From Mobula hypostoma (Eukaryota): DNA of 64,000 bases. The translations under genes and the position numbers were made by a program. The stretch is taken from NCBI RefSeq assembly GCF_963921235.1, contig NC_086097.1, positions 99,946,001 to 100,010,000 of the forward strand. The letters run 5' to 3'. Every line of letters begins with the position of its first letter. The first letter of the stretch is position 1. The notes below the pieces were generated by a model. It was not told the origin of the DNA and searched no databases. It was given only the letters and a program-made list of their open reading frames with translations. Shown piece by piece: positions 2,481-62,935 of this stretch.

Positions 2481-2569
2481 ACATACATCAAAGTTGCTGG
2501 TGAACGCAGCAGGCCAAGCAGCATCTATAGGAAGAGGCGCAGTCGACGTTTCAGGCCGAGACCCTTCGT
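2481..2569 (-). mobile_element. 89-bp Penelope-end insert with hammerhead core, nested in the ERV
   Basis: 14-bp TSD CAGAAAGGTAGGTA at 2467-2480 and 2570-2583; minus CTGACGA-AGGGTCTCGGCCT-GAAA-CG-TC-GACTG. Confidence 0.8.
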
Positions 2570-3129
2570 CAGAAAGGTAGGTACATCAGATTCACAGGCC
2601 CTCTCATCGATGTACAGGAAGTGGTTGGGGTGATCTCTATTTGAGTGACAGCAAGGACTTCTCCCTGGTGGCAACCCCTTCCGAACTGTCCAATCGATCA
2701 CTGGCCTGACTGCTGAAAGGGGCCGGGTTACTTGTATTCACTCCCTGTTCAGGCTGGGGGTGATCGCCTTCAGATGCTGTGTGCAATCTTTCTCAGTCTG
2801 GCATGTCATCGAAGTTGTGGAACCTGTTGTCTGTGCTTTAACTTAAATCTCTCCCCATCTATTTTCCCCAGTATCTTTTTTATTCTATGCTATTCAACGA
2901 ATCATCTACCTTCTAAACCAGCCTTCATTACAGAGTACTACTGCCATCACACTTAAGCGTGCTATTCACGGGTTTCTGTCATGCTCTGGGTGTCTTCTGT
3001 CTGTTCCATCAACTGTGATCAGCTCTGGTGTGACCGGCTGGTGTTCATTTCTTAGATTCTCTGTAATTACACCCTTACTGGGTGCACTTGAGCACCTGCA
3101 CTGTCTGTGAGAGCAACAAGAAGGTGAAT

Positions 3130-4197
3130 CATACGGTTTAACCTGGGTCTAGTGTTTCTACTGGCTGCCTCGCCGAGTCTGCACACAGACTCAAGAGTTA
3201 CTTGTTAAAAGTATTGTCTCTGGTCCTATCCATCTGGGAGCAACCCTTGCCCCTTCAGGCAGCACCCTCACCATGACCTGGTCACCCGGCTGAGGGAGGA
3301 CTATCTCCTTTCCCTCTGGCTCTCTCTGATCAACAATGCGCTGCTGTAGCTTTGCTCGGTCTTTCAACACCTTAAGTTGGTTACACAGGTCTTTCACACA
3401 CTGTCATTCTATCCCTGTAAGCCCCAGGCTCACCGTACCCTGTAATTACCCCATCAGAGGAATTGCATTGCCCGCACCATCAATAATTCATAGGGGCTGA
3501 AACCCAGCGTGCAATTTGGGGTTGCTCGTAATCTCATCAGGATTCCTGGAAATACATCAACCCATGTCTTTCCCGTCTCAGCTATAGCTTTGGTTGTCGC
3601 TGATTCCTGATTGTTTGGCTCATCCTTTCTACCATCCCTGAACACTAAGGGTGGTAAGGTTGGCGGAACCGTTGTCGAATCCCTAATGGTCGGCACATCA
3701 CTCCCCCTATGAAACGTGCTTCCTGATCAGAATCCACTTGGACTGGGGTTCCCGGCCTTGGCAGGATTTCCTGAACTAGAATCCATGCAGCAGTGCGGGC
3801 GGTGCAGTCCCTTGTTGGGAAAGCCTCTACCCACCGGGTGAAGTGATCCATAATTACTAGACAGTAACTTTTCCCCCTGCTTTTGGGTAGGAGCCTCGTG
3901 AAGTCTATCTGAATGTTGCCAGCTGTAGCTTTCTGCCCTTACCAGGGTTATGCTGGGCACAAATGATACAACACGGCAGAATTTCTCAACATCCCTGCCC
4001 CTCACTGGCCGCCAGCAGCCCTGCTGGAGAATTGTGATTATACTCTGCCTTCCCTGATGCATCACCCTATGATATAACTTCAGTAGTATCTGCCTAATAC
4101 GTGGTGGGGCCACCGTGACTCCTTCCTCCCTGTGTATCCAGCTCCCATCTAGTCCCTCCTTTGCCCCTTTTCTCCTCTTCTGCATCCACCTCTTCAT
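3130..4197 (-). pseudogene. Integrase remnant (frameshifted)
   Basis: HHCC-like (YHRVMHQG...FCR), core DHFTRWVEAFPT/DSDQ, LRATPNCTLGFSPYELL, C-terminal PQPGDQVMVR...PRWIGPETILLT. Confidence 0.85.
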
Positions 4198-4299
4198 ATC
4201 ATTTTACTAAACTGGCTTCAGTAGTTTCTTCGTGGTATGTTCTTCCTGCTCTATTTCCATTTAGCTCTCGTGTGCCTCCCCCACTGTTAGGATGATGAT

Positions 4300-4947
4300 C
4301 GTGGGATTCAATCCGGCGTTCCTAACTATCATTACTGTCTTGTGAACAGCGGTCAGTGCGTCAGTTTTTATAGGGTACTGCTTATGAGGTTTATGCAGGC
4401 CCCGCTCTATTTTAACTGGGTTTATCTTTACTCGACCACAATTTTACTTGAGTCTAGGCCACACTGCTGGGAACTGCTGACAAAGTAACCCATAGACATC
4501 ATCCTGGCTTCAGTCTCTGATCAGAACAACTGCGGCTATGCTGGCTAGGTTGTGTACTCTGATGGTTGTTTGTGTTTGCTGCCCCTGACTTGTCCATATT
4601 ATTTCTCCCTTTCCTGTTCCTGTAATGGCCCCTCCTTCCCTGAAGATGACTATTCCCAGGATAGTACCGTCATTATTTGGGCAGACCCAGAAACACACTG
4701 GAGGCTGTACCTTGTCGATTTCGAGTATTTCCAACTCTGTTCTTTCTGATTTTACTCTTTTCCCTCTGACACCTGTAATATAAATAGCCTGCCCGGTTGT
4801 TGGAAAGGGTAGTTCAATTATCAATACCGATGCCCCTGTGTCCACTAACACATGGCATTGCTGGTCCCCTAACAATTTGTTGTGTACATTTGCGGGACAC
4901 CAGTGCAGTACACAGTGGGGGCCTCCGCCACATCTTTTTCTGCCCAA
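4300..4947 (-). pseudogene. Aspartic protease plus first ~50 aa of RT
   Basis: VLVDTGASVLII...TILG; then FPAVW..*NCGRVKINPVKIERGLHKPHKQYPIKTDA. Confidence 0.8.
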
Positions 4948-5049
4948 GAAGCCATTTTCATCAGCTCTATGGTCTGATCGATAGTCAGATTGGACAAACT
5001 GGGTGCTGACAGGGTGAGCGATTGCCTACCTGCCATGACTTTCGCCTGG

Positions 5050-5866
5050 TTTTCTTTCCTCTGTTTTTGGATACTGCCTCCAACAGGCCACAGCTATAGC
5101 CTCCCACATCTATTCCAGCAGTTCCTTGTTACATGCCCTGGCTGCTGGCACACAAAACACCCTCTGTGAGGTCGCAGCAGCTGCATCCACTATAGCCACT
5201 TTACCATTTCTCTTGTACTTCCTTTGGTCTATCTCACTGGCTCGTGAAGATATCACAGAGTAGGTCGGCTCTACTGCAGTCCCCAAGTCTAAAACTTCCT
5301 GGTGGGCCTTCATTCATCATTTTCAGGAAGACTGGGTCATCGGTCCCTGGATTATCCAACCCTGAATACTCCTCATATGTTCGATATTTATGTTCTGCAT
5401 AATCCATAGCTGTTTCATCAGCTCTTTGAATCAATGCCTTTATCGTTCCCCAGTTATTTTCACCTCCCCCCCCCCGATCATTGCCTCACTTCCCCTTTAA
5501 AAGAGTGATATCTTTCTTCATTGCTGGCGTTCCTGTGTCTCCTGGGCCATACTGTCCCCCATATTCCTCAGGCACTTGGCCAACATTTGTATATCCTTAG
5601 GTTGCATCTGGTGAATTTCAGTCATTTCCTCGAGCCTGTGCCAGAATTCTGAATTCCCACATGTGACTTTAAGTGAGGGCAACTCTGACAAAATGTCGTT
5701 TCTTCCCGGAGGTGAAGGGCTTATGAATGGTCGTAATCAGAGTCACGGGCTGTCTCAGATCATCAGGGTTCTTGACCTGATGTTGCCTGACCTCAATATG
5801 TGCCATCGTGACAGGAATATCTGGGTAAAACCTCTCCCTGAAATACCTCCATACTAATGTCCACAC
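5050..5866 (-). pseudogene. gag remnant
   Basis: Broken ORFs 5669-5866, 5234-5434, 5110-5313; MHR-like motif and degraded Cys knuckle near 5070-5120. Confidence 0.65.
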
Positions 5867-6249
5867 TGCGCAAAATATAAATGATGGGTATCAGATAAAC
5901 AGTGCATACTTAAAACAACGGAGTATGGACTCTGCAATCTGCCACTTCTGAGCACCTGAACTGAAGATGCCTGCTGTATTCCTTTGCATCACACTCGCAA
6001 AACACATATGCTAAAATGCAGCCCCGGGAAAGAGTATACACTTACGTCCCAAACCTTCAATAACTACCCTTCACAACTGGTGGCTCCATCTTACCAAATT
6101 AACACACACAGTTTTGTCTCTTACATAAACATGCATGCACTTGTGCACACTCTCCTTTTATATCTATAGAAATGTGAGTGCTAATTTTAAAAATACTCAC
6201 TTATTCAGACTGCTAAGGTTGCAGGCCACACGATGGGTCACCCAAAGGT

Positions 6250-6268
6250 ATCCCTGTCCTGACACCTA
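6250..6268 (-). promoter_or_regulatory. Primer-binding site, tRNA-Leu-like (degenerate)
   Basis: Minus TAGGTGTCAGGACAGGGAT just inside the 5' LTR; resembles TGGTGTCAGGAGTGGGAT. Confidence 0.55.
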
Positions 6269-6272
6269 ATGT

Positions 6273-6695
6273 TGTTGCATGAATTGGGTCACCAGAGAAA
6301 GGTACTGGTAGGTATGAATCAGCCTCCTTATTCGACAAAACAAAATACAGCAAGAATCATATTGAGACACTTTCAGCGGAAAGCTCTGGCTGGCCCACAC
6401 TACCTGATATTTTATGTGCTAAACAAAAAAAAAGGACAATTCCATATTTGCAATGTTTCCACAATGCTTTCTTTGAAAGTAGACACAAACTTCACACCTT
6501 CCATTTCGCACCCTCACCACAGACGTCTATATAAATCTTAATCAGCATTGTCTGGTCTGTGATTCAAGGCTTTTAGGAACTATTGTTCGGAGCTGCATTT
6601 TAAATTAAATCTACAACCTACAGTATATTCAGATTTGAAGATTAGTGGCTAAAGTCATTTGCTACATGTGCTAAACCCAAATATTACCCTTTACA
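6273..6695 (-). repeat. 5' LTR
   Basis: Direct repeat of 1728-2144 (roughly 85-90% by eye); inner boundary could be 6270. Confidence 0.88.
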
Positions 6696-7469
6696 GCTTC
6701 CACAATGCTCACATCAAGCCTTGAGTAGTGTTGCCCCTGGTTTGGGCCATGGATGGTGAAGAATCCATGTTTTCTCTTGTGCTCTTTCCATCCAAAATCT
6801 GTTCCTGAGGTCACAGCTTCCTGTTGAACTTTGCCCACTGGGTACCTGGAGAGCTATATATTTTCCTTCAAGGCATGAGGGAATGTCCACTCAAGGAAGG
6901 TCAGATGTTTGTGGTTAAGTATCTCCTGGACTTTCAGGTCGTTTCATCAAAGCAGTTCTGGTGTTCGGTGTTGGAGAAGTCTAGAGTCTGTTCACAGGTG
7001 CTAATTATGGTGCAGTCTAGACATGTGGACACTGCAGCTTCCACTGGCAATGGGTCTTTCAGTATCTGTCAGCTCTTTTAACAGTTTCTTGTGGCGATAT
7101 TTCTGACTCAGTACTTTTGATATTTTCATCAGTTAAACCACAGTGTAAATGTATATTTGTGTACAATTTCCACATAGAGTTGCATTTTCGTTTGTTAAAA
7201 ATTAGCTCTTGTGTCACATTCCGTTGTTTATGGCATGGACATAGCTCCATGTTTTATGTAATAAATGCTTGTTGGAACAAGATGAAGTTTGAGTGAGGAA
7301 CAAATTTTGCCAAGCTCTGAATTGTAGATCGGGACACCGTTCGTCCTTTGCCTTTATCTTACTACATCTTAATAATATATTGTTGTGTTCATGTTTGTAT
7401 TAAATCCATTTCCAATAACAAATTAATTGCCATGAAGAATGTTGATTTGGTGAATTCATTCGTTATTGT

Positions 7470-8220
7470 TGAAGCTGAAGTTTATTGTCATGGTCACACC
7501 ACCTATCAAGGGTATAAATGCTATGAAAATGAGCTTTTTGCAGTACATTACAAACATAAATTAACATTCTTTATACATAACATACACAATAAAATAAGCT
7601 AAAACATTATGCCAATAGTGCAAGATGGGGGAAATGTTGTCCAAGGTAGAATTAGGGGTTTTCAACCTGGTTCAAGAGCCTAGTGGCAATGGGAAGAAGC
7701 TGTTGCTGAACATCAGTGTGCATCTTTAGATTCTGGTCTCTCCTGCATGATGGAAACAGTGAGTAGAGGGTATAGTCTGGATAGTTAGTTCCCTGATGGT
7801 GATGAATGTTGCCTTCCTAAGAAATCATTATTGGGAGGAGAGCTGTATCCATGAGAGAACTGGTAAGTCCACTATTCTCTGTAGCCTCTTGTGTTCCTGT
7901 GCATTGTAGTTTCCATACCGGGTGGTGATGCATTGTGCCTATCTAGCAGTTTGACAGAGTCTCTGACATGCCAGATCTTCTGAAACTTCTAAGAAAGTAG
8001 AGATGCTGGTGCATCTGCATGTTGGGTTCAGGATAAATGCACCTATGAACTTGAAGCTGCTCACCCTTTCCACTTCAGGCTCTTCAGTGAGGACCAGTGT
8101 TGGTTCACCTGATTTCCTCTTCATAAAGTCCGCAATCAGTTCCTTTGTTTTCAGATGTTGAGTGCAAGGTTGTTATGACACCACTTACCCTGCTGACCTA
8201 TCTCACTCCTATATGTTGAC
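7470..8220 (-). mobile_element. Rex1/Babar-type LINE 3' fragment, degraded
   Basis: EVERVSSFKFIG motif (ORF 7939-8124); similar to 43170-44190. Confidence 0.6.
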
Positions 8221-8770
8221 AGCAGTAGGATAGTACTGAAGGTGGGCTTGGATTCTTTATTCTATATTTGCACAATTACCATTAGCTTAGTTTGATAATT
8301 TTGCTTTTTTTTTAGAATTTATGCTGTTGAGATTTTCAGTTTTTTTTATGCCACATCATTAGGTAGAGGTTTTCCTCTTGAAGGCCTGTTTCCATGGGGT
8401 TGAGCTACCTACAATCTTACACTAGCAGCAAGTTTCAGCAGGTTATAAAAGCATAAACCTTATTTCAGTTTCACCAGTTTTCCACTTTCCAGGAAGGATC
8501 ACATGATGGTGATTTTAAAAGCCTTGATATGAGCTGCCTTCCCCAATCCAGAAGCCAGTTACGGTGTGCTTGCTGCTCAGGCAGACATCAGCTCAGTGCA
8601 AAATAGTACTTTGCCATGAAGCCAGGCAGCAGCTGAGGGGAAGGACTTTCTTTTTCAATAACCATTATCACTGATGAATAGGTCTAAAATGATAAATAAA
8701 TACTATTCTTTCTGGGCGGTAGGGAATGTTTGAAACTGGAAACCACAATGAAATGATGGTTTTATTACAG

Positions 8771-8868
8771 GCTTGCTATGAGCGTGGAAAAGAAGTCATT
8801 GTGGTGCCAAAAACATCTGCCTCCACAGACTCTCCTTGGTTGGGCCTCGCCATATATGCCTGGTCAGG
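8771..8868 (+). CDS. ZFYVE1: ZFYVE1 coding exon
   Basis: tacag|GCT...TCA GG|gtgagt; ACYERGKEVIVVPKTSASTDSPWLGLAIYAWSG. Confidence 0.95.
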
Positions 8869-9070
8869 GTGAGTTTCTACACCTTCTAACTTAATACCAA
8901 GACCTCAGCCATCCTGACAAGCCCCACTAGAGCAGATGTGTGGTTCAGAACCACCAACAAAATATTGTTGAAATTAAGCTGACAGTGTATAGTCTTACAG
9001 CATTCCAGTTTAACAGTTTTTTTAGATGTGAATATATTGAATAAGTTACTGAGTTTATTGCCCCTTACAG

Positions 9071-9188
9071 GTATGTGATTGAGTGCTCAAACTGTGGGAT
9101 CATTTATCGGAGTCGACAGTATTGGTTTGGTAACCAGGATCCGGTGGACACTGTAGTAAGAACAGAAATTGAACATGTTTGGACAGGA
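9071..9188 (+). CDS. ZFYVE1: ZFYVE1 coding exon
   Basis: tacag|G TAT...GGA|gtgagt; YVIECSNCGIIYRSRQYWFGNQDPVDTVVRTEIEHVWTG. Confidence 0.95.
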
Positions 9189-9779
9189 GTGAGTACAGCT
9201 AATTACATCTCTCCTTGTGCACATGCATGTCTACATTTTGTACTAGACTTGTGATCCAAACTCTGTATGTGGTGTAGCTAGAAGAATTGATGTCTCATAC
9301 TTCGATGATCTCTTTATTCTATTATTTATGATTATTAATCAAAAGTACTCTTCGCTACTTTTCTTCCCCAGTTTTGAAGGGTTTCAGCCTGTGACTTTAG
9401 ATTGTTTCTTTTTCCGAACAGCTGCTTGACCTGCTGTTCCCAGCACTTTGTTTTTACAGCAGGCTCATTAACTTTACAGGTCGTTGTGCAAATGCTGGAA
9501 TTTCCTAACAAAAGGAAAGCTCAAGATGATCAAGTAGACTGAACATGAATTTATTAAGTTGGCTCTTGACCTTCAGTTGACCTTGCCGAGACCTTGCACC
9601 TTATTGTGAGCGTGCACTGCACTATCTCAGTAACTGCAATCATTCATTCTGCATTCTGTTATTGCTTTTACCTCAGCACCGGTGTGCTGAAATTATCTGT
9701 ATGGATGGCAAGTCAACACAAGTTTTTTCACTGTATTTTGGTATATGTAAAAATAAAATAAACCAATTTACCAATTTAA

Positions 9780-10790
9780 AGGGAAATTATCTTTGAAAAT
9801 GTTGAGTTTGAAGATGCAATAAACAGAGTGGATACAGAAAAATCGATAGAATTGCATATTTGGATTTCCAGATGGAATTTAATAAGGTGTTGAATAAAAG
9901 GTTGCTGCACCAGGTGGTCATATATTGGCATGGACAGGGATTGGCCAACTAACAGAAAACAGGTTGGCAGCCAGTAACCAGTGGGGTGCAGAGGAATCAG
10001 TGCTGGGCTTCAGCTTTTAATAAACTTCATTGAAGGCGTGGATGGTGTGACTGCATTTTTTGAGAATGTGAAGACAAGAGTGTGAGTAAGGTGTGAGGAG
10101 GACAGAAGTACAATGGAATATCAGTAGGTTATCTGAGTGAACATGCAGTTGGCAGATGGAGTATAATGTGAACAAATGTTACCTACTCCTTGGAAAAATG
10201 AAAAACAACAGGGTTTTCGACCCATGGATGAGATTATAGAATGTTGTTGTACAGATAGATCTGGGTGTCCTAATCCACAAAACACAGAAGGTTAGCATGC
10301 AGGGACATCAGGTTATTCGGGAGGTGAATGTATATCATTGACTGTAGTTGCAGGGAGATGGTTTTTGCTGCAGCTTTGCAGGGTAGTGCTGAGACTGCAC
10401 CTGAGCAGGCTGCCTGCTCTACCGAAGGAAACACGTACTTGCATAGTCCCAAGATGAAGGAGCTGATAAGTGAAAAAAACTTGAATAGTTTGGACTTGTA
10501 CTCTTTACAGGTGATCTTCTTGAAATATTGACAGGGTGGATGATAATGTTTTCTCTACTGGGATTTCTGCAACTCAGCTATCAAAGTAAAGGTATGTAGA
10601 GGACAAAATAGAGGAATGTCCTCTCTGAAGATGAAGAAGCTTTGGAATTTCATAGTCCAGAGAACTGTTATCAAAGTGGAGATTGAACTATAAGATTCGC
10701 CAGAGATATGGGGGAGCACTTGGTGTTAAGGCTGTTAATATCAATCAATATCTTATTGAATGATGGAGTTGTTCATAATGTTATGTTCTT
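9780..10790 (+). mobile_element. CR1 LINE fragment, highly degraded
   Basis: RT-region and 3' UTR similarity to other CR1 copies here (tcttattgaatgatggag...gttatgttctt). Confidence 0.6.
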
Positions 10791-11532
10791 ATACTGTAGT
10801 GTTATTTATTAAGTTATGTATTGATGAGGTTTATGCATACAATTCTCTAGTTATCAACATTGCGGGAAGAGCTCATATGGTTTCATATATAAAAGTAATT
10901 TATTAATTACATTTTCAGAATCATTCATTCCATCAAATTCCCTTTCCGACCCACTCCACTCACCAGTTCCATTCACCCACTACAAATATGTTTCATACAT
11001 GTGCTTCCTGCTCCCCCCCCCCAATCTGGTTTTGGTTCCAGCCCCCCAAGTGACTTCTGTCATTGACTGTCCTTAGCTTAGCGGTTTCCGTTGTGTTCCT
11101 GCTCACCACTCTCCAGCCTTCACACTCACCCCCTACCTTGCTTACCTGCTTCTCAATTGTCCTCTCTGTCTGCCTTCATCTGTCATTCACCTGTCACTGT
11201 GTATCCCCTCCAATCTCCTATCTGTCATCTCTCATCCCTCCTCAGTCTACCAATCACCCTGGGCTCCTGTCTCACCATTCCTCCTTTTCCGCTTTATATC
11301 GGCCATCTCCCCTCTTCATTCTCAGTCCTGATGCAGTGCTTTGATCCTAAGTGTCAACATTTCCTTTCTCTGCACAGACACTATTCAGTCTGCTGAGTTT
11401 CTCCCTCCAGCAGGTTGTTTGTTGCTTCAGATTCTAGCATCTGCTTTCTCCTGTGTCTGCACTTAGCTGAAGAGGTCCTTCTGGAAGGAAAGAGACCCTT
11501 TGGCCAACCAGTCCATGCCGACCAAGATTCTC

Positions 11533-11661
11533 ATCGATACGAGGAAATCTGCAGATGCTGAAAATTCAAGCAACACACATAAAAAATGCTGGTGAAAGCA
11601 GCAGGCCAGGCAGCATCCATAGGAAGAGGATGGATTCTTCCTATGGATGCTGCCTGGCCTG
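11533..11661. mobile_element. Fold-back Penelope-end mini insert
   Basis: TSD CAAGATTCTC at 11523-11532 and 11662-11671; internal inverted repeat gcaggccaggcagcatccataggaaga / tcttcctatggatgctgcctggcctgc. Confidence 0.75.
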
Positions 11662-11897
11662 CAAGATTCTCGTGGAAGTTAGTCCTCTTGGCCTGCATTT
11701 GGCCCATATCTCTCAACCTTTCATATCTATATACAGTACCTGTTCAGAAAACTTTTTAAATCTTGTTAATATCTTTCAAGACACCAGGATGTAGCCAAGC
11801 ATTTTCAGTGTCCTTGCCAGCTATTACCCTTTTCCTGCTATTTATTTTAACTTGCTGACAGCTTGTTTTAAGTTTTTCCCTCCCTGTATAATTGATC

Positions 11898-12117
11898 TGT
11901 AACACTGTACATTATATATGCCAACACTGTATAACACTATAAATGCTAACACTATATAACACTACGTTATATACACTAACACTATATAACACTGTACATT
12001 ATATATGCCAACACTACATAGCACTGTACATTATATACTCCAACCCTATACAGCACTGTATGGTATATACAGCAACACTATATAACACTGTTATATACAC
12101 TAACAGTATAAACACCG
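11898..12117. repeat. Degenerate AT-rich tandem repeat (acactgta/tatataac units)
   Basis: Repeated acactgtacattatatatgccaacact / tatataacact blocks just upstream of the 12146 acceptor. Confidence 0.7.
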
Positions 12118-12145
12118 TAGCAATGAAATGGCACTTTCTTTTCAG

Positions 12146-12316
12146 ACTGATGGATTTCTAAAGGACAACAACAACGCTGCCCGTCGATTGCTGGATGGAG
12201 TGAATTTTATGGCACAATCAGTTTCAGAATTTAGTGCCAAACCAACAAAGGTAGTGACAGCCTGGCTGACAGATCAGATCGCACCCTCCTACTGGAGGCC
12301 CAACTCTCAGATCATT
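12146..12316 (+). CDS. ZFYVE1: ZFYVE1 coding exon
   Basis: ttcag|ACT...ATT|gtaagt; TDGFLKDNNNAARRLLDGVNFMAQSVSEFSAKPTKVVTAWLTDQIAPSYWRPNSQII. Confidence 0.95.
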
Positions 12317-12799
12317 GTAAGTGCAAAAACCTTTCTATGTAATACTGCTGAAACATGGGCAGATTACTCTTCTGCCAACAGTACAAACTCACTGACCATC
12401 AAAACTCAGTTTTGTTTTGTTCTTTCTAACGGACTTATTGGCTCTGGCTGGCATTTTCTCCAAGCTGTGGCTCTAAAATGAAGATGATCTTGTAGCTGAA
12501 AATTGAAGTTAAATTGTAGGAAAAATTACATGTTTGTTGACTTCTGGATTTAGTAGTTCATTTCTTAAACTAAGATTTAAATAAAATTACCAAATGCGCA
12601 TTTGATTTTGAAGTACTATTGACTTTAAAACATATGGTTAATCTGTATTAACTGGTACCTGTTGGCGTGGCTGCATTTCGCACAGACAAATCCTTGTCTC
12701 CCTCTCAAAATCAGCCTCTTGCACGAGAGGAGTATCACTGTGTGAATTTGCCAGCTTTGATCTATCAGTGTCCTCTGCCCACCAACCACCCATTAGCAC

Positions 12800-12975
12800 T
12801 CATCTGATATTAATTCCATTCTTCCCACATTCCTACCATTCACCTACGTACTGGGGACAATTTCCAGTGGCCAGTTCACCGAGCACAGCATGTCCTTAGG
12901 ACATGGGAGGAAACTCTCACAGACACATGGAGAATATGCTGCCTCCACACAGATTGAACCCACTGTGAGACAGCA
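12800..12975 (-). mobile_element. V-SINE-like (tRNA-derived) fragment
   Basis: Similar to the 44245-44417 SINE body. Confidence 0.5.
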
Positions 12976-13197
12976 GCAGAATGATTCATAATTAAATAAA
13001 TCTGAAGTTAAACTCCATGAAGCTACCAGTCTCTTGTTAATATAACTGTGATTCACCAGTAGGAAATTTTAGCCACCAGCCACCTACCTCAGCTCCTGAG
13101 TCATGGTTATACACTACTGTTAACCAGCTTCTGGCTTCAAGGGATGGAGAATAAATGTCCCAAAAATGACCACATCCTGTGAATGTATACTAGGTAG

Positions 13198-50427: not shown

Positions 50428-50496
<69 letters not shown>

Positions 50497-50515
50497 TTAT
50501 ATATATATATTTATA
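50387..50515. repeat. Compound (CA)n/(TA)n microsatellite
   Basis: Direct inspection. Confidence 0.95.
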
Positions 50516-52229: not shown

Positions 52230-54607
52230 AAGGGTCGCTATTCCTTTTCAAATGTTCGGAGACTATTTAACACTATATATTCATCCTCTTCTAAAACTCC
52301 ACAATGTGTTGTATCTTTGGATGCTGAAAAAGCATTCGACCGAGTCGAATGGAAATATTTATTCAATGTTTTCGAGAAATTTGGCTTTGCTGTTAATTGT
52401 AATAATTGGATTAAAATGATATATAAAGCCCCTGTTGCTACTGTTGTCACTAACAATCGTAGGTCTCCTTTTTATCAGCTTTCACGGGGGACAAGGCAAG
52501 GTTGTCCATTAAGTCCTTTGTTGTTTAATTTTATATTAGACCCCCTTGCTATTGCTCTTCGTGAGGCTAAAAATATCCATGGGATCTTTGTGAATGAGAC
52601 CATGCACAAGGTCTCTCTTTATGCTGATGATTTATTGGTTTATATATCTAACCCTGATGAATCCATTCCTGCCTTGCTAAGATTATTTAATTAATTTGGA
52701 GGTTTTTCAGGATATAAAATAAACTTTAGTAAAAGTGAATTGTTTCCTTTAAATGATTCTGTCTCTATATATGATAATACTCCTTTTAAAGTTTCAGACT
52801 ATTTTAGATATTTAGGTATTATAATTACTAAAAAAGATAAGGATCTTTATAAAGCTAATTTTGTTCCCTTAGTAGACTCTATGAAGTATTTATTTAGTAG
52901 ATGGAGTCCACTTACATTTTCACTTGTTGGTCGTATTCATATAGTTAAAATGATAATTTTACCGAAATTTTTATATTTATTTCAGAATATTCCTGTTTTT
53001 TTGACTAGGAAGTTTTTTTGATCCGATTGATTCTATTATTTTATCTTTTATTCGGAATAATAAAAGACCAAGAATTAGTAAATGTCATTTACGAAATTGA
53101 AAAAGGATGGAGGTCTTGCTTTGCCTAATTTTAGAATGTATTATTGGGCTGTTAATCTGCGATATATGTCTTTTTGGTTATACTGGGTTGATAAGAGTGA
53201 TTGGCCAATTTGGGTAGACCTGGAACTGAAAGTTGTAAAACAGTTTTATTCAACCTCGTTACTGGGAGCTCCTTTACCTATGCAATTAGGAAAAGTTGTT
53301 AATTTAAACCTATATCCTGTGATTAAGTATTCTTTACAAATTTGGTTCCAGTTCCGCAATTTTTTTAATCTTAAAAGATTTAAACTTTGTAGTTTAATTT
53401 ACCAAAATTACTTTTTTAAGTCTTCTTTGAGTGATCCAATCTTTTTACTTTGGAAAAATAAAGGTATTAATTCTTTTTTGGATTTATTTAAAGAAGATAG
53501 ATTGATGTCCTTTGAACAATTAATTGATAAATATTCTCTTTCATACTCACACTTCCTGCAATACCTTCGAGTTAGACATTTTTTACAAAAATATTTAAGT
53601 AATTTCCCGTACATATTGGAGGCTGACCTGTTAGATATATTATGAGTATGAATCCTTTGAATTCTTCTATTGGAAGAATTTATAATTTATTTTTACAATG
53701 GGATAAGCGTCCTTTATCTAAGATTAAACAGGATTGGGAAAAGGAACTTAATTTGACTTTTATGACAGAGGATTGGATGCGGATTTTGAAGTTCGTTTAC
53801 TCTTCAATTTGTGCTAGCCATTCATTGATTCAATTTAAAATTGTACATCGTTATCATTTGACAAAGGAGAGACTTTCTAAAATCTTTCCTAATGTTGATA
53901 GTCATTGTGATAGATGTAAAACTGAGACAGCTACACTGACACATATGTTTTGGTCTTGTTCTATATTGGAACAGTTCTGGAAATCGGTTTTCTCAACAAC
54001 TTCTAAAGCACTTAAAATTAATTTGCAACCTAATAAATCAACTGTGCTCTTTGGAATAGTTCCTCAAAATATTCATGGTATTTCTGTGTCTGACCAACAT
54101 GTTATTGCATTTGTTACACTGATAGCTAGGAGGGCCATTTTGTTGAAGTGGAAGGATATGTCAGCTCCCACTTTGTCACAATGGTTCTCTCAAGTGATGC
54201 TATGTCTTAGTTTGGAGAAAATTAGAAGTCGAACCTTTGAACCTTTATTTGATTTTGAGAGAAGATGGGGCTCATTTGCTCGTTATTATCATTTGAGTTA
54301 ATTGATATAATTTTTCCATGATCTAATTGTAAATTTTTTTTTAGTATATTTTCTTTTCTTGCTGGCGGTTTGATGTTTATTTTTAGAAGCTTTTTGTATG
54401 ATGCATGGCTCTGGGGTTGTACACCTAATGGGTTCTCCTTTTTTTCCTCACTTTTCTGCTCAGTAGGTTTTTTTTGTTATCACAAAATTTTGTTTTCAAT
54501 CTTTAAGATAATGGTTTTTTTTTGAGGCATTGTAAGTGTTGTCACTTCGATGTACTCATGTTATTTTTCCTATATATACAATAAAAAAGATTTGAAAAGA
54601 AGGAAAG
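52230..54607 (+). mobile_element. 5'-truncated L1 (RT to 3' end), antisense to DCAF4
   Basis: 12-bp TSD AAAACTCTTCAT (52218-52229, 54608-54619); LDAEKAFDRVEW, GTRQGCPLSPLLF, YADD, CDRC...HMFWSC; AATAAA and GAAA-rich tail. Confidence 0.92.
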
Positions 54608-54879
54608 AAAACTCTTCATTTCTCCCACCACCTAATATTTTTACTCAGTAATTCTTTTCCATTGCATCCCCATTTGTTTGGGATACCAACTAATACTTGG
54701 GCACACGACAACACTTGGGCAGCCTTCCTGCATACGTTATTAGTTCACAAGCACCAAAGCCAAACCCAATCCTGCTTTCCTTTGGCAGAGAGATACTTAA
54801 AGGAACTGGCAGCAAACTGGGAGTACTGACAATACAAACATAGTAGCCAGGAAAGACTCAGAACACACCTCAGCACGGA

Positions 54880-56815
54880 ACTGGGCATCCAGGAGGACAG
54901 TAGACCATCAGCAACAGCAGAAATGTACACTGCCACAATCTGTTACTTCAAGGCCTGACATTTCCTCGCTCTGCCATCATCATCAAAGCAAGGAATCTAC
55001 CCTGTTTCAGTGAGAGGAGGAGGGCATGCCATACCATGCAGATGTACAGACGAGCAGCCAGCCTGGTGAAAATGCAACACAGGACTATAGGAAAGCTAAA
55101 CAACAGACACCACACAGTAGACGGAGCCAAGCAATGCGACAGCCAATGTATCAGATCTGCAGCGTTACTAAATCTGATATTTAAATAACTAATGGCACAG
55201 GCTCAATGGCAGTGAGGTTACCCCTATGAGAGCTGAAGGCAAGGCTGAAGGATTTGCAACTATGTTCAGTCAGAAATGTCCAGTGGAACACAGAACAGCA
55301 CAGCACAGGGACAAGATCAAGATCGTCAGCCCATGACACTATGCGGAACTAATTAAATCTGTGGTGACCAAGATCTTCACTGTCACAGGAGTCAGAATAC
55401 AGCCAATTCAATCCACTCCTTGCGACATAAAGAAATGGTTAAGAGCAGAGGATACGGTAAAGGTTATGGGAACAGATGTCACCCCAGCTGCGGAAATGAA
55501 AATCTGCAAAGCTATCCATTGTTACAGACTGGCACTTGCCCAACAATGAGGAAAACCAACCAGATTCTTGTCCTCAGAAAAAAGCACGACAAATCCAAAC
55601 CCGTATTTCTGTTGGGATTACATATCACTGATTTGAAATGCTAATTCTGCTTTTCTTTCACAGCTGTGTTGGCCTTGCTGAGTATCTTCAGCATTTTCTG
55701 CTTGTATTCAGATTCAACACACAAATGCTGAAGGAACTCAGTTACTCACTGATGCCTTATCTGGCTTTCACCAGAACCACTTGGTTCACAGCCCGGGTCC
55801 AAACATAGACCAAAGAGCTGACTCTAGCAATGATCAGTCAGTGTCCTGAACATGAAGGCTGCATTTGGCCAAGGGTGGTAAAACTAAAGTCACAAAACAT
55901 TAATGAGAAAGCATTCCAGTGGTTGGAGACAGACCTCACACATCACCCATCATCCAGACATTTCCGAGGTCCAACCTGGCACTTCTATGGAGTAAACATT
56001 ATTTGCCACTTCAGCCCGTACCTGAATGCTACCCACAACGTTCTGCATGCAGTCATGGGCTATGTCATTTGTTGAGGAGGTGTAAAAGTATTAAACTTGG
56101 GACAGTATGGAGAGAGCATCCCCACTTTGACTTCCAATTCCATTGTCACCTCCTCAACAAATAATACAGGGCATGTCTGCATGTGGAAAAGCCTGGGCAA
56201 CATTCAGATATAGGCTGACAAGTTGCAAGTAATGTTCACGCCACAAAAGTTTCAGGTAAAAGCCATCTCCAGTTAAGAGAGAGACAAAGCACCTTCCCGT
56301 GACACTCAACAGTATTATGGTCACTGAGTACCCCGTCAGCAACACCTTAAGGAGACAAGTGGACCGGCCACATAAATAACACGGCTATAAGAGGAGGTCA
56401 GAGGTCAGATGCTGGGTATCTTGCAAGTTACTTACCTCCTGCAGCCCAAAGTCTTTCCACTATTGACAAGTCAGGAGCACAAATGAACATTCAACTTGGC
56501 TGGATAAGCACAGCTCCAAAATCTCTTAAGTTCAACAGCACCCTGAACAAAGCAGTCTGCCACCTTAAGCAATCACTACCAACGCACAGTGGCTACAATG
56601 TTCAGAGGCACAGCAGTTACTCACCTACCCACAGCAACTTTCTAACCTGTGACCTCTACCCACCAAGGACATGGGTGGCAGGTAGATAGGAACACCACCA
56701 TCTGCAGGTTCACCTCCATTCCAAAGTCACCAGGACCGCAGCAGTTTAAAAAGTCTCATCAGCCTTCCCAAAGGGCATTTAAGGAAGAACAATAAATGCC
56801 AGTGATGCCCATATC
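54880..56815 (+). mobile_element. Old CR1/L2-group LINE, heavily degraded
   Basis: IQPIQSTPCDIKKWLRAEDTVKVMG linker and RT remnants; ends aataaatgccagtgatgcccatatcc. Confidence 0.45.
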
Positions 56816-57319
56816 CCAAACTAAATAAAATAAAAATTTCTAGTACTGTACTGCTATAAGTCTGTAGGGACTTAAATAGCTTTCCAGTAATTTTGGCTCA
56901 GTTACCTTGTTGTTAGGAAATCAGGCAAACATGTACTAGTCCTCATAGAAAGGTTTGCAGAGGATCTATCCTGGGACCAGCATGTAGATGCAACCATGAA
57001 GAAGGCAAACCCACATCTCTAACTTCTCATAAGTTTAAAGAGATTTAACATGTCGTTGAAGCTTGACAAATTTCTACAGATGTACATTGGAAGGTATTCT
57101 GACTGGTTGTGTGATGACCTGGAATGGGAACTCCTATGCACAGGAATGCAAGAAGCTACAGAGTGTGGTGGACTCAGACTGCCCCATCCCAGGTACAGCT
57201 CCCCCACCACCTGCAAAGGTGATGTCTCAGGAACGCAATATCCATCATTGTGGACAGGTCACGACTCCTTCTCGATGCTGCCATCATGAAGAAGGTAGAG
57301 ACTCTTGAAGAGCCACACC

Positions 57320-58021
57320 CAATGCTCCCTCTGCGCACACATCTTTTGCTACTAGCACACAAGGGAATTTAAATTGCACAGAAAAGGCTGTCACCCTCTA
57401 CCTCATTGGCATGTTAAATATGTTTCACGATTGTACACAATCACATTTCCTTTTCCAGTTTCTGATGCAGATGGTCTTGACAACGTGGAGTATGCAATGA
57501 TTTGTCTGCAGATTTTAGAACTAGTTTATTTATACTGTTTCTATTGAAGAAATTGTTGACTCATTATGTCAGATTCCAAAGAAACAAAGGGCGTGAAGCA
57601 CAAAAGAACTGCTAGTTCATTTAAAGCAGAATGGCTAAATGAAACAGTAGAAATTGGTGTTACCTGTGTATATTGTTCCAATTAAAAAGTTGCTGGAGAA
57701 TTTGCAAGTGGGAAAAAGTGAAGTGACATTTGGAAACTTGACTTTTCAAAGTGTCATTCAGCAAGCAAGTCACATTTGGATGGTGTGCAAAAGCTCCAGT
57801 GAGAAAATCCTTCATACCCCCGCTACAGACGTTTTGTGAGAGTGCAGATGAATGAGAGTGAGAACAATTAAACCCAGAGGAGATCAAAGTTCTTATTGAG
57901 TGTTTTGCTAGCTGTTAAAATGAATACCTCTATACATAAAATTCAGCATGCACATGTTGTTGTCACTGGGCAAAAAATTGCAGAGCACATGATTTTTGCG
58001 TACACTGGTCATTACAAATTG
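57320..58021 (+). mobile_element. hAT-type non-autonomous DNA transposon inside a Rex1 fragment
   Basis: Starts caatgctccctct; approximate 8-bp TSD GCCACACC/CCCACACT; peptide SSFKAEWLNE...WKLDFSKCHSASKSH. Confidence 0.45.
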
Positions 58022-58184
58022 CCCACACTTCAGGTTCAACAACATTTCCCCACAGCTGTTAGGTTCTTGCACCAACCTGAAAACGCTAACAGCACTTTAG
58101 ACTATGTTTCTTTTTTCCCCTCTCTACCTCTCTCTCAACATGTACTAGTGTCATTACGTCTCTTTGTTTTTGCTGTGTAAATTA

Positions 58185-60602
58185 CAGTGCTTTGAAAAGG
58201 TATTCAGCCCCCACAACTATTTTCTCATTTTCTAAATTTAAAATATTTAGGATTTTTTGAGTTAATACAGTTTCTACAGGGTCAATAAAAGGTGCTACTG
58301 TCCTATTTAAATGTATATTTTATGGTTGCAAGTCCCTGCTATACATTAAGAGCTTGAAGTCCTGCAGGTCTCCACCACCAGCGAGTTGCTCGTTGGGGAG
58401 AAAATGAGGGAGCTGCACATCATGGTGCTGCTGCCTGAGTTGAAGGAGGTGTACAGTCTAATAGCCAGTGACCGTCTTGGTCGCTTTTCTTGTGAATGTA
58501 AGACCCTTTTGGACATTGTTAATGAGGAATGCCAAATGTCTGGCTCACTGATTTATTGGCGGTGGGCAGAAGCGAATGGCGGGGGAGCTGTGTGACCCTG
58601 TTTGAAGCGAGGAATAAGCCTCAAGCTGCGTTGATGCCTGATTATAGCCACTGGGAGAGAGGTGCCGGAGCTGGTCTGCTTCACCAGAGGCAGTGTGGTG
58701 CAGTGTCCACGCTGGAGTCATTTCTGCCCTCCCTGCTGTCCTCTCTGCAGAAGACAAGCTCTATTGTGGCTGACTGAAGATTTTTGCGGCAATCAATGGA
58801 TTCAGGGCCTCAAGCTGCAGTGTCGCCTGTACACAGCGGCCAGGTGAGAGGCATTGGAGCCAGTGCACTCCACCAGGGGCAGTGTGGTGCAGCTTCCAGT
58901 TTGAAGTCTGTGCTAGCCTCCCGGTGTTCACTCGGTAGGAGACAAGCTCTATCCTGGTTCGAGTCTGAGCTTTTTTTTTAAAATTACCGTTTGGGTGTAT
59001 CTTCCTGTTACCTTTACATGCTTGCTATCTTGTACGTACGTGCTATGTGTGCTTTTGCTGTGTGACTTTGTACTGTCTTTTGCACTTTGGCCTCTGAGTA
59101 ACACTGTCTCACTTGTCTGTGTTAATTATTGTTCATGTATGGCTGAATGACAATTAATGAATTGAAAAATGTCAAATCAAAAGAAAAATTCCAAAACCTG
59201 TCAATAATTTTCTAAAACTTATAAACCAAAATTGTGAGGCTGAAAAAGTATTCATCCCCTTTGTAATTACTACACTAATTTTTCTCGGGTGCAATACTGT
59301 TTATTACCTTACCAACTCACCCAATTTGTTGATGTAGAAAATTGGAGGATCACCTGAATCACCCACTTTTCTCTGTAAGGTCCAATATATGGTAGATTTT
59401 GAACAGACCAAATCAAAATGAAGACAAAAGTGCATTCAAGACAAGTCAGGGAAGTGATAACAGAGAAACACAAATCTGGGGATGGGTACAACACTATCTC
59501 AAAGACACTGAACATGGTTTGGAGCTCAGTTCAGTCCATCGTGAAAAGTGGGAAAAAATATGAATACACAACGACACTGCCTAGGTCAGGCTGCCCCTCT
59601 AAACTCAGTCGCCAGAGAAGGATGGCTCTTGTAAGAGAGGCTACTGTGATGCCAACAGTCACTCTGAGTGATCTGCAATAGTCAGTAGCTGCAACTGGAG
59701 ATGAAGTTCATGGCTCCACAATCTCTAAGGTCTTGTACAAAAAAGATATTTATGGAAGAGTGGCAAGGAAGAAGCCCTGGCATATCCTTGCCTGTAAAGA
59801 CTTTGCAAAGTGTCACTTAGGAGATACTGTAAAGATGTGGAAGATGGGTTAGTGGTTGGATGAGGCTGAAGTTGAACTTTTGGGCCTCAACACTAAGCAT
59901 AAATTAATACTCCACATCAACCATCCTTAATGGAAAGTACAGCGGAGGTAGCTTCATGCTATGGGGATGCTTTTCAGCAGCAGGGTCTGGAAATCTGGTC
60001 AGGATTGATGGGAAGGTGAATGCTGCTAAATACAGAGAGAACCTGGATAAAAATCTGTGAGACTCTGCCGGAAAGCTTAATCTGGGGAGAAAGATTGTAT
60101 TTCAGCAGGACAACCTAAAGCTCAGTGCCAGAGCAACTATGGGGTGGCTTCAAAAGAAGAAAATTGATGTCTTTGAGTGGCCCAGTCGGAGTCCTGACTC
60201 TAACCTGATCGAACATCTCCGGCAAGACCAAAGATTGCTGTCCACCACTGCTCCCCAACTAACCTGGCACAGCTTGAGCAATTTTGTAAGGAGGAATGGG
60301 CAAATCTTGTGCAAAGCTAATAAAGATTTATCCAAAATAACTATTGGCTGTAAAAATTGCGAGAGGTTGTTCAATTAAGTACTGAGCAAAGAGGAATGAA
60401 TACTTTTGAACTGCTGACATTTCAGTTTTTGATGTTTTTAGTTTCTCATACTTTACAATTGTCCCTGGTTTTGGGCTCTACTGTGAAAAAAACCAGCATG
60501 TGATTCACAAATAAAAATTCTCTGTGAAATCGATCAAAATTCCTGGTTGTAATACTCATTTGTGTATGTGAACCAAGGGCTGAATACTTTTACAAGAGAC
60601 TG
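58185..60602 (+). mobile_element. Tc1-family (IR/DR type) DNA transposon, decayed
   Basis: TA flanks; TIR cagtgctttgaaaaggtattcagccc vs reverse-complement cagtctcttgtaaaagtattcagccc; inner DRs near 59243 and 60390; transposase pieces HKSGDGYNTISKTL, LPRSGCPSKL, WGCFS, FQQDN, WPSRSPDSNLIEHL. Confidence 0.88.
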
Positions 60603-60962
60603 TATGTATAATTTTGGTTAATTCAGATTGATGTAATTTATGTTTGTCATGTTTCTACTGTATTGTGCTGCTGCTAAAGGCAACTTCTCGTGGCATTTAT
60701 ACACTGGGTATGTATACCCATGGCAATCAACTTGAACTTGAAATGGAATATAAACATTAGACTGTAACAGTCACATTTTTTTCAATGTTGAATACAACAC
60801 TTACAATATAACATCTTAAATGTTTCAAATGATATCAAAATGATCACAAATGAAAACAATACATATTCGGGCCATTATGTGGTGTTACTCTCATACCAAA
60901 GACACATGCTTATTCCCAGATGCTGAGAAAAAGCTGGTTCTCTAACGATCTGTTAATTCTAC

Positions 60963-61058
60963 CTGTACTGAAGCACTTGTCAGCTTGTGGGTTAAGGCAC
61001 CAGCTGCAGGTCCAGACAGTTGAGCTCTTAAAGTTGCACAACATTCTTGGCTGTTCCT
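60963..61058 (-). CDS. DCAF4: DCAF4 coding exon, most 5' one seen in window
   Basis: tgcag|AG GAA...ACA G|gtagaa; EQPRMLCNFKSSTVWTCSWCLNPQADKCFST. Confidence 0.88.
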
Positions 61059-61985
61059 CTGCAGATGAAATAAAATTGGCATTGTATGAATTACGCTGGA
61101 AGGTTTTCCTGGTATTCTCAAACACTTATATTCATTAAAAATTTGCCTGCTGTTTGATTTAATTAAAGTGCAACTCCCTACAATGAATCCTTAAGGTGAG
61201 GGCGCAACTACAATATTTCCCTATTCATCCAAAACATATTCTCAGCTAGGTTTATCCATTCTTAGTATTTACATGGACTGCAAAATCTATGTAATGTAGA
61301 TACCAAGGCCTCCAAATATACCCCAGGCCGATAGAAAGGATGCATTCCAAGCCATTTTGGAGATGGAATTTAGCCAATGAACTTAATCCTTTTTCTCACA
61401 TTTCACACACAGTATTTGGAGGAATCACATTCCACAGCCTGCAGTGTTTATTTAACAAGGCTAATAACATCTACAAAATAAATGAAGAAAAGTTTAATTT
61501 GAAACAAATGCTAATAATAAACTTGAACTAAATCCAGAAGCCAGGTATGCACTGGTAGCAGACTCTAGACCAGTTCAGATTAGGTTGTGCCTCTAATAAC
61601 TTTCTGAAAATATCCAAGTTTAGTAAAGAAAAACTCTGAAATTCAAATCTATTTGACTTTGAATATATCAAAATGATTCATTTAGTCCTTTTAAAATATG
61701 GCCAAGTGGTTAACGGTGAAAAGCAGAAATTTAGGTGGTCTGATCAGTTGTACAGAGAAATAAAAACCAGAACTGAATCCAGAGAAATGTGAGGTAATGT
61801 ATGTGGGAAGGTGCAACAAGATGAGGGAAACATGGGAGGATATCAAGAGGTTTAATGGAGCAGACGGACTTTGCAGAGCATGTCCACAGATAGCAGGACA
61901 GGTCAACAGGTGGCTAAAAAGGTATTGGAATGCTTTTATTTAACAGCTGAGACACCAAATTTAAAAACATGGAAGTTAGGCTGGA

Positions 61986-62935
61986 CACACAAAACGTGCT
62001 GGAGGGACTCAGCAGGCCAGGCATCTACAGAAAAAAGTATAGTTGACATTTTGGGCAGGACTGGAGTAAATAAGGTGAGGAGTAGATTTGAAAGATGGGG
62101 GGAAGGGAAGGAGAAATACAGGGTGATAGGTGAAGCCCAGAGGGGGAGGGGTGAAGTAAAGAGCTGGAAGTTGATTGGCGAAAGAGATATGGGGCTGGAG
62201 AAGGGGGAATCTGATAGGAGAGAATAGAAGGCCATGGAAGAAAGAAAAGGGGGGAGCAGCACTACGGGGAGTCGATGGGCAGGCAAGGAGATAAGGAAAA
62301 GGGGATGGGGGATGGGGGATGGGGAATGGTGAATGGTCCATTACCGTAAGTTGGAGAAATCGATGTTCATGTCATCAGGTTGGAGGCTATCCCCCCTCTC
62401 CCACTTCACCATTCCCCATCCCCTTTCCTTCTCACACCTTATCTCCTTGCCTGCCCATCACCTCCCTCTGGTGCTCCTACCCCCTTTTCTTTCTTCCATG
62501 GCTTTCTGTCCTCTCCTATCAGATTGACAGGTGTCTAATTAGTCAGGGTATCAAGGGATATGGGGAAAAAGCCGGAAATTGGAACTAGATAGGTGAATAG
62601 TTTAGCTCGATGGGCCGAATGGCCTACTTCTGCTCCTTTGTCTTGTGAATTGTGAATTCCCCCTTCTCCAGCTCTGTATCTCTCTCTCACCAATCAACCT
62701 CCCAGCTCTTTACTTCATCCCTTCCCCTTCTGGTTTCACCTATCACCTTATGTTTCTCTCTTCCCTTCCTCACGTTTAAAATCTACTCAGCCTTTTTTCT
62801 CCAGTCCTGCCGAAGGGTCTCTGCCTGAAATGTCAATGGTATATTTTTCCCCATAGATGCTGCCTGGCCTGCTGAGTTCCTCCAGCATTTTGTGTGTTGC
62901 TTGGATTTCCAGCATCTGAAGATTCTCTCTTGTTT
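61986..62935. mobile_element. Inverted-arm Penelope-like insertion with small CR1 tail inside
   Basis: 14-bp TSD GAAGTTAGGCTGGA (61972-61985, 62936-62949); left arm minus to ~62390, right arm plus; CR1 3' piece ~62524-62655. Confidence 0.82.

What the first reader, a model, noticed from the sequence alone, without database searches (positions are those of the whole stretch)
2540..62838. Dispersed family of minimal hammerhead ribozyme motifs in Penelope-like element ends across two host genes' introns
Seen: the motif (C)AGTC-CTGA[T/C]GA-A-GGGTCTCGGCCC-GAAA-CG-TC-GACTG recurs at ~2540(-), 16632(+), 17507(-), 20736(+), 27806(-), 27838(+), 31939(-), 45936(+), 50755(+) and 62802(+). Stem I (CAGTC/GACTG), stem II (GGGT/GCCC) and a palindromic ACGT stem III are visible. 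Established: CUGANGA/GAAA/UH is the hammerhead core, and Penelope-like elements carry minimal type-I hammerheads thought to cleave as dimers. Inference: about 10 copies in 64 kb implies a very large genomic ribozyme load. Copies at 20736 and 27838 are sense in ZFYVE1 pre-mRNA with intact cores, while others have core mutations (16632 U16.1, 45936 G12, 62802).
Basis: partly seen in the sequence, partly recalled or inferred. Interest (0 to 1): 0.72.

Follow-up and report, generated by a model that had tools for sequence, protein, structure and literature searches.

The report
Ray Penelope ends carrying minimal hammerheads
These motifs are leftover ends of a very abundant Penelope-type jumping gene in a ray, each carrying the small self-cutting RNA motif already known from such elements; the scattered copies are decaying, show no shortage on the transcribed strand of host introns, and are likely harmless.

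Summary
All ten motifs are real (nine insertions). They are the known minimal type-I hammerhead in the terminal repeat of a Neptune-type Penelope-like element (PLE) of a mobulid ray; a whole element (998-codon RT + GIY-YIG frame, one hammerhead per repeat) exists elsewhere in the genome. The load is large: 52,249 exact matches, roughly 170,000 intact cores by extrapolation. Host impact is not supported. In 1.71 Mb of introns, sense:antisense was 137:116 (intact cores 48:36), cores decay almost as fast as flanks (0.106 vs 0.127), and there is no covariation. Added detail: insertion 5' ends pile up at the hammerhead's 5' edge (27 of 58 young copies; genome counts fall 31% there, 1% across the cut site). 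Copies therefore likely come from uncut RNA that starts at the hammerhead. Cleavage was not tested. The scan reported the same family and the same 5' pile-up before in other shark/ray genomes.

The parts
2540..2577 (-). minimal hammerhead, core intact, 5' strand of stem I lost; whole insertion about 2480-2572, begins at C3, 14-nt target-site duplication; antisense in ZFYVE1 intron
16632..16669 (+). hammerhead with U16.1C; end of a PLE fragment about 15772-16744; sense in ZFYVE1 intron
16069..16575 (+). 55-bp x 9.3 tandem expansion inside the terminal repeat upstream of the 16637 hammerhead
17507..17544 (-). hammerhead, core intact, stem I and III weakened; end of PLE fragment about 17448-18368; antisense
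17820..18197 (-). degenerate C-terminal GIY-YIG endonuclease part of the PLE frame, ending about 280 nt upstream of the 17539 hammerhead
20736..20773 (+). hammerhead, nominal core intact but stem III reads AGGU (not self-complementary); older subfamily; sense in ZFYVE1 intron
27806..27843 (-). hammerhead in the inverted arm of a single insertion (27765-27969; 15-nt duplications at 27750-27764 and 27970-27984) inside an L1-type LINE
27837..27874 (+). hammerhead, core and ACGU intact, sense in ZFYVE1 intron, but predicted fully paired in a 76-bp hairpin with the inverted arm
31939..31975 (-). hammerhead, core intact, G16.2A and G1.1 deleted; end of PLE fragment 31885-32442; antisense
45936..45973 (+). 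hammerhead with G12A; antisense in DCAF4 intron
50754..50791 (+). hammerhead, core intact, C15.2U; end of young PLE fragment 50224-50889 with full 3' tail; antisense in DCAF4 intron
62802..62839 (+). hammerhead with A6C and broken stem I; PLE end 62690-62936, with an inverted partial copy at about 61985-62392; antisense in DCAF4 intron
184..34322 (+). host gene ZFYVE1, last eight coding exons (184-297, 1315-1425, about 8770-8869, 9072-9191, 12146-12316, 15115-15294, 24185-24295, 34089-34322)
37460..64000 (-). host gene DCAF4/WDR21, coding exons near 61068-60949, 51159-51049, 47922-47740, 46684-46568, 37669-37460; continues past the window

Best explanation
The motifs are the minimal hammerhead in the terminal repeat of a Neptune-type Penelope-like retrotransposon, scattered as 5'-truncated ends that decay like ordinary transposon debris and likely cut nothing in host RNA. 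Shown: the parent element has one RT + GIY-YIG frame with a hammerhead about 220 nt before it and 300 nt after it; insertions end at two fixed points about 95 and 131 nt past the core; many begin within a few bases of the hammerhead's 5' edge, not at its cut site. Inferred: transcription of the element starts at about the first base of stem I; the element's RT primes internally at the two fixed points on uncut RNA and runs off the 5' end after 100-135 nt, which mass-produces 'hammerhead + tail' insertions. Inferred from the literature: the hammerhead cuts only weakly, as a dimer through the ACGU palindrome or helped by the element's protein, so it matters only in the parent element's RNA.
For: Whole element L044: 998-codon frame with RT motifs, CX4CXXC linker and GIY-YIG/CCHH; sense hammerheads at -218 and +300, 3.5 kb apart, plus an upstream inverted copy; 9 of 10 long-frame loci have a hammerhead 295-307 nt after the stop. 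Relatives carry RVT_1 and GIY-YIG. Motif matches Cervera's consensus: extra base between 9 and 10.1, G10.1-C11.1, palindromic 15.2-16.2. Decay: non-CpG core mutation 242/2277 (0.106) vs flank 976/7707 (0.127); G12 kept in only 69% because it sits in a CpG. Sense:antisense 137:116, p=0.21; intact core 48:36; fully paired 24:22; core mutation 0.105 vs 0.107. 5' ends: 27 of 58 young copies start at -18..+6 from C3, 4 of 58 at +26..+30. Genome counts 107,089 (+29), 105,640 (+21), 92,871 (+7), 63,667 (-10). 18 of 59 short copies have target-site duplications against 1 of 175 control pairings. Four subfamilies keep a T/A-rich box starting 27-35 nt before the A of stem I in most copies that show it. 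The anole PLE primes internally and inserts uncut RNA (PMC11167929).
Against: No cleavage, start-site or strand-specific RNA data: the runs were contigs of uncertain kind. The same upstream sequence also reads as branch point + pyrimidine tract + AG, and in the young subfamily folds a hairpin over the CUGA box, so the pile-up need not be a start site. 16 of the 27 piled-up ends are arms of inverted pairs and are not independent; 11 are simple insertions. After calibration on 69 long copies the +29 to +21 ratio is 0.93, so up to about 7% could start at the cut site. The core is slightly better kept than the flank (p=0.009); mixed subfamilies inflate the flank figure, but weak selection is not excluded. 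Pfam found nothing on the L044 protein itself.
Confidence: 0.8

Rival explanations
1. The dispersed copies are a working ribozyme load: sense copies cut host pre-mRNAs as dimers, or with element protein, and affect genes such as ZFYVE1.
For: 52,249 exact matches with intact core; an estimated 9 x 10^4 copies keep core, stems and palindrome; a PLE hammerhead is protein-assisted in vitro; core a little better kept than flank.
Against: No sense depletion and no extra core mutation in sense copies across 16 genes. In ZFYVE1 the three sense copies in the window are U16.1C, AGGU (self-duplex +3.8 kcal/mol) and hairpin-locked (-173.8 kcal/mol). Single minimal hammerheads showed no cleavage and dimers little; 8 of 9 Xenopus dimers did not cut.
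Confidence: 0.06
2. Same element, but the 5' pile-up is a reverse-transcriptase stall or template switch at a hairpin that pairs the CUGA box with the bases just upstream, or at a spliceosome-bound 3' splice site abutting stem I, not a transcription start.
For: Predicted hairpin over -18..+10 in the young subfamily; many ends are inverted junctions there (41 of 182 copies classed inverted); CTGAC/TACTAAC + pyrimidine tract + CAG/TAG precede stem I; in D. virilis Penelope the intron ends at helix I and the start lies 46 nt before the intron.
Against: Short simple copies lose identity sharply between -3 and -5 across subfamilies (G-3 34/48, A-4 26/48, then near background), including subfamilies whose upstream sequence differs; no recurring first exon was seen in front of short copies (by eye); the T/A box keeps its distance to stem I.
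Confidence: 0.35
3. The short units are an independent non-autonomous family (retrozyme or SINE) that copies itself through ribozyme-cut circles.
For: Fixed ends, target-site duplications and huge numbers; retrozymes derive from PLE repeats; one local tandem cluster exists at G000:C2:122689656-122690188.
Against: Units are solo or inverted, not head-to-tail; they begin at the hammerhead's 5' edge, whereas cut monomers would begin at +28; their sequence is that of the autonomous subfamilies with a continuum of lengths.
Confidence: 0.08

Closest known systems
Minimal type-I hammerheads in pLTRs of metazoan Penelope-like elements (Cervera and De la Pena 2014, PMC4209133)
   Same: CUGANGA + one extra base + G10.1-C11.1 stem II + GAAA + palindromic CG + UH + short stem I; one per terminal repeat; mostly solo, some opposite-strand pairs.
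   Different: Stem II is 4 bp, not 7-8; one family gives at least 52,249 exact matches in 3.5 Gb against about 2,000-9,000 reported for Schistosoma, Latimeria and Xenopus. 'Shark', 'skate' and 'Callorhinchus' do not occur in the two supplement files searched.
Neptune-clade EN+ PLEs (Craig et al. 2021, PMC8557442)
   Same: RT then C-terminal GIY-YIG with CCHH, CX2-5CXXC linker, 5' truncation, inverted upstream copy, optional 30-40 nt tail.
   Different: Clade assigned from the linker motif only; no tree with reference elements.
PAc, Poseidon of Anolis (Frangieh et al. 2024, PMC11167929)
   Same: Two fixed 3' ends downstream of the hammerhead; no excess of ends at the cut site.
   Different: Other clade; in PAc the frame starts inside the hammerhead, here the long open frame of L044 begins about 220 nt after the core; that paper's main text, as read, reports no 5'-end pile-up.
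Animal non-LTR retrozymes (PMC7229834; bioRxiv 10.64898/2026.07.22.740005)
   Same: Type-I hammerheads, PLE-derived, up to 126,247 motifs in axolotl.
   Different: Those are tandem units, mostly with canonical hammerheads and under-represented in Xenopus introns; these are solo truncated PLE ends.

Membership tests
minimal type-I hammerhead of PLEs | core C3-U4-G5-A6-N7-G8-A9, G12-A13-A14, A15.1/U16.1, H17 | tested here: met
   family majority at every core position; intact in 7 of 10 window copies and 84 of 253 sampled
minimal type-I hammerhead of PLEs | extra base between 9 and 10.1, G10.1-C11.1 pair, palindromic 15.2-16.2 | tested here: met
   extra A 92%, G10.1 89%, 11.1 C or U 92%, CG commonest at 15.2/16.2; C11.1 is often U in the youngest subfamily
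minimal type-I hammerhead of PLEs | covariation in stems I and II | tested here: not met
   two-sided changes close to expectation from independence in 232 copies; expected for neutral copies of near-identical masters, so it counts against selection on copies, not against the fold
minimal type-I hammerhead of PLEs | self-cleavage as dimer or with protein | not testable with these tools
   needs in vitro assay; ACGU self-duplex only -1.7 kcal/mol
EN+ Penelope-like element | single frame with RT and C-terminal GIY-YIG | tested here: met
   L044 998 codons, L045 973 codons; relatives with PF00078 and PF01541; direct Pfam and PDB scans blank
EN+ Penelope-like element | pLTRs each with a hammerhead; inverted 5'-truncated copy upstream | tested here: met
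   L044; inverted pairs at 27765-27969 and near 62 kb
EN+ Penelope-like element | optional 30-40 nt 3' tail | tested here: met
   3' ends cluster at +93..+100 (20 of 58) and +131 (17 of 58)
Neptune clade | CX2-5CXXC linker between RT and endonuclease | tested here: met
   CKRNKCYTC in most long frames; definition
Neptune clade | RT phylogeny with Neptune references | not tested
   no named reference elements in hand
non-LTR retrozyme | head-to-tail tandem units each with a hammerhead | tested here: not met
   no hammerhead-bearing tandem array in the window; copies are solo or inverted
domesticated intronic hammerheads of amniotes (RECK type) | single conserved sense copy under selection | tested here: not met
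   high-copy repeat, near-neutral decay, no sense bias; orthologous retention in other rays not tested

The most novel reading that the evidence does not exclude
In rays the Penelope transcript starts at the first base of its hammerhead, and internal priming 100-135 nt downstream on uncut RNA mass-produces 'ribozyme + tail' insertions, giving the densest hammerhead load among the genomes in the papers I read (about 50 intact cores per Mb) with no visible cost in introns; the genome itself then records where the RNA starts, where RT primes, and that the ribozyme is not used before insertion.
Probability: 0.5. Interest if true: 0.5.

Novelty: new member of a known kind. Interest (0 to 1): 0.3.

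Why it matters
The kind is known. What this genome adds is scale and a natural experiment. With more than 10^5 young copies one can read the transposition cycle from insertion ends: starts at the hammerhead's 5' edge, two fixed 3' ends, no peak at the cut site. That backs, from genomic insertions, the in vitro result that PLEs insert uncut RNA, and it bears on the open question of what the PLE hammerhead is for. The lack of strand bias in introns says these minimal ribozymes are close to silent outside their element.

Tried and rejected
Rfam scan of the window (E<=1): no hammerhead family among 15 matches; the minimal motif lacks helix III, so this is no evidence against it. Monomer folding: no copy beats its shuffles. 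Pfam on the window's GIY-YIG piece and on the L044 protein and PDB sequence search: blank. RNA: no RNA holder listed; four contig runs of guessed kind laid on L044 and on the 20741 copy showed no usable start, end, strand or splice joint, and none is used as evidence. Extra untemplated G before the element start (lead from e1-10284073): 2 clear and 1 ambiguous among 18 duplication-flanked short copies, inconclusive. Orientation control with other repeat families was not run because no bias appeared. The CUGAUGCAG variant has 270 exact matches and is old and decayed; not pursued as a new core. Literature: 'Penelope + shark + hammerhead ribozyme' gave one review whose 'shark' is the shape simile; 'Mobula + Penelope + genome' gave none; searches listed nothing on this family or on a 5' pile-up. 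The library lacks most subscription papers and repeat databases, so 'not in print' holds only for these searches.
Full report
Observation. All ten motifs are present at the stated places and strands. A strict descriptor hits 7 of them against 0.01 per Markov control window (100 controls). The named core changes are correct. The ACGT palindrome survives in 4 of 10. The pair at 27838-/27842+ is one inverted insertion with 15-nt target-site duplications inside an L1-type LINE. A profile finds 23 related pieces in the window. Positions below are counted from C3 of the core; the predicted cut lies between +27 and +28.

Host. An exon at 12146-12316 is identical over the aligned stretch to ZFYVE1 of Mobula hypostoma and one at 47740-47922 is 97% identical to its DCAF4, so the host is a mobulid ray. 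ZFYVE1 runs on + to 34322 and DCAF4 on - from beyond the window to 37460. Three of the ten motifs are sense (16637, 20741, 27842), seven antisense.

Parent element. The fragment at 17820-18197 is a GIY-YIG endonuclease end, with 177,869 first-look candidates in the genome. Of 10 long-frame loci fetched, 9 have a sense hammerhead 295-307 nt after the stop. L044 is whole: 998 open codons with RT motifs, a CX4CXXC linker and GIY-YIG/CCHH, hammerheads at -218 and +300, and an inverted copy upstream. Relatives carry RVT_1 and GIY-YIG; direct Pfam and PDB scans were blank. The linker is described as absent from Penelope/Poseidon and reduced in Nematis (PMC8557442, passages), hence Neptune-type; no tree was built. 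3' ends cluster at +93..+100 (20 of 58) and +131 (17 of 58), the PLE tail.

Load. One 34-letter pattern with an intact core has 52,249 exact matches, control 0. I sampled 1,714,865 bases inside 16 genes: ZFYVE1, DCAF4 and 14 intervals between same-strand spectrin or Sushi exons; those 14 are inferred genes, not annotated ones. The sample holds 408 hits, 253 spanning the hammerhead, 84 with an intact core and 46 also with stems and palindrome. Extrapolated: about 5 x 10^5, 1.7 x 10^5 and 9 x 10^4. The sample is fair for the exact pattern (24 seen, 25.8 expected). Published figures: about 2,000-9,000 minimal motifs in Schistosoma, Latimeria and Xenopus and 126,247 type-I motifs in axolotl.

Sense:antisense is 137:116 (p=0.21), 209:199 for all hits, 48:36 for intact cores (95% interval of the sense share 0.46-0.68) and 24:22 for fully paired copies. 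Core mutation is 0.105 in sense and 0.107 in antisense copies. Non-CpG core positions are mutated at 0.106 and 32 flank positions at 0.127 (p=0.009); the flank is scored against one consensus over several subfamilies, so part of this gap is artefact, but weak constraint is not excluded. G12, the general base, is the worst-kept core base (69%) because it lies in a CpG. Two-sided changes in stems are near independence (232 copies). Locally, 16637 has U16.1C, 20741 has AGGU, which cannot self-pair, and 27842 is predicted fully paired in a 76-bp hairpin. Host-RNA cleavage is therefore unsupported, though not directly tested.

What the ends show. Among 58 young-subfamily copies, 27 start at -18..+6, 4 at +26..+30 (one exactly at +28), 5 elsewhere in +15..+43, 11 over the next 312 nt upstream and 11 beyond. 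Sixteen of the 27 are arms of inverted pairs and 11 are simple insertions, by my reading of the flanks. Genome-wide, a fixed anchor plus four bases at +29, +21, +7 and -10 gives 107,089, 105,640, 92,871 and 63,667 matches: ratios 0.99, 0.88, 0.69, or 0.93, 0.95, 0.66 after calibration on 69 long copies. The main drop is at the 5' edge of the hammerhead; a class of up to about 7% at the cut site remains possible. Target-site duplications flank 18 of 59 short copies (control 1 of 175), so these are separate insertion events.

Mechanism. Shown: fixed 3' ends, a 5' pile-up at stem I, uncut hammerheads in the inserted copies. From the literature: the anole PLE primes RT at two internal sites that define the tail, inserts uncut RNA, and its hammerhead cuts only with protein (PMC11167929); single minimal hammerheads do not cut and dimers cut weakly. 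Inferred: the element's RNA starts near the A at -4, and RT priming at +95 or +131 runs off its 5' end, yielding 100-135 nt insertions. Four subfamilies with different upstream sequence keep YAGTC at this point and a T/A-rich box about 30 nt before it; reading these as initiator and TATA-like box rests on recalled consensus. The same bases also fit a recalled branch point, pyrimidine tract and AG, as at the D. virilis intron that ends at helix I, and the young subfamily folds a hairpin over the CUGA box. I put a start site at about 55%, a stall or splice site at 35%. RNA contigs could not decide.

Comparison and verdict. This is a member of the PLE minimal hammerheads on every sequence feature but covariation, which neutral copies are not expected to show; cleavage is untested. 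It is not a tandem retrozyme and not a domesticated intronic ribozyme. My searches found no paper on this family in rays or on the 5' pile-up; repeat databases were not available. The scan's own notes hold 20 similar findings in at least 10 genomes, several with the same pile-up. New member of a known kind, interest 0.3.

Papers seen: PMC4209133 parts 1-2 of 4 plus supplement passages (file 1 not searched); bioRxiv 10.64898/2026.07.22.740005 parts 1-3 of 5 (supplements not seen; they may list PLE or retrozyme counts for its one cartilaginous fish); PMC11167929 parts 1-2 of 4; PMC8557442, PMC2377424, PMC6155905 and PMC7229834 as passages only; all others as search listings.

Noticed in passing
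window 1728-6690: Two direct repeats 4.5 kb apart (1728-2140 and 6273-6690, 84-91% alike) flank protease-like and integrase-zinc-finger frames on the - strand: a decayed LTR retroelement. The 2572 hammerhead insertion sits inside it.
   Followed up: no
window 24789-30166 (-): Nearly whole L1-type LINE (ORF1, endonuclease, RT pieces) antisense in a ZFYVE1 intron, interrupted by the inverted hammerhead insertion.
   Followed up: partly
window 314-445, 11299-11454; L061-L080: Older subfamily with CUGAUGCAG in place of CUGAUGAAG (A9 changed, or the extra base moved before A9) and U-A at 10.4/11.4; 270 exact matches genome-wide.
   Followed up: partly
G000:C2:122689656-122690188: Five same-strand hammerhead matches within 530 bp, two pairs 39 nt apart: a small tandem cluster that could fold as a dimer.
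   Followed up: no
window 16069-16575: 55-bp unit repeated 9.3 times at 97% identity inside a PLE terminal repeat, a minisatellite born from the repeat.
   Followed up: no
window 62208-62525: Long hairpin (89-nt arms, 89%) from inverted PLE repeat pieces; gives sub-threshold plant miRNA hits in Rfam. 41 of 182 sampled copies are in inverted arrangements, a large source of intronic double-stranded RNA.
   Followed up: no
window 44344-44415 (-): tRNA-like match just under the Rfam threshold (28.6 vs 29 bits), probably a SINE head.
   Followed up: no
L044:1995-4283 (-): The PLE protein is 44-55% identical to many unnamed records and to coral, snail and echinoderm proteins; PLE pieces also appear inside annotated ray proteins such as chitinase-domain protein 1 and DIPK1C isoforms, either exonisation or annotation error.
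   Followed up: no
window 52164-54301 (+): Second L1-type LINE RT region, antisense in a DCAF4 intron.
   Followed up: no
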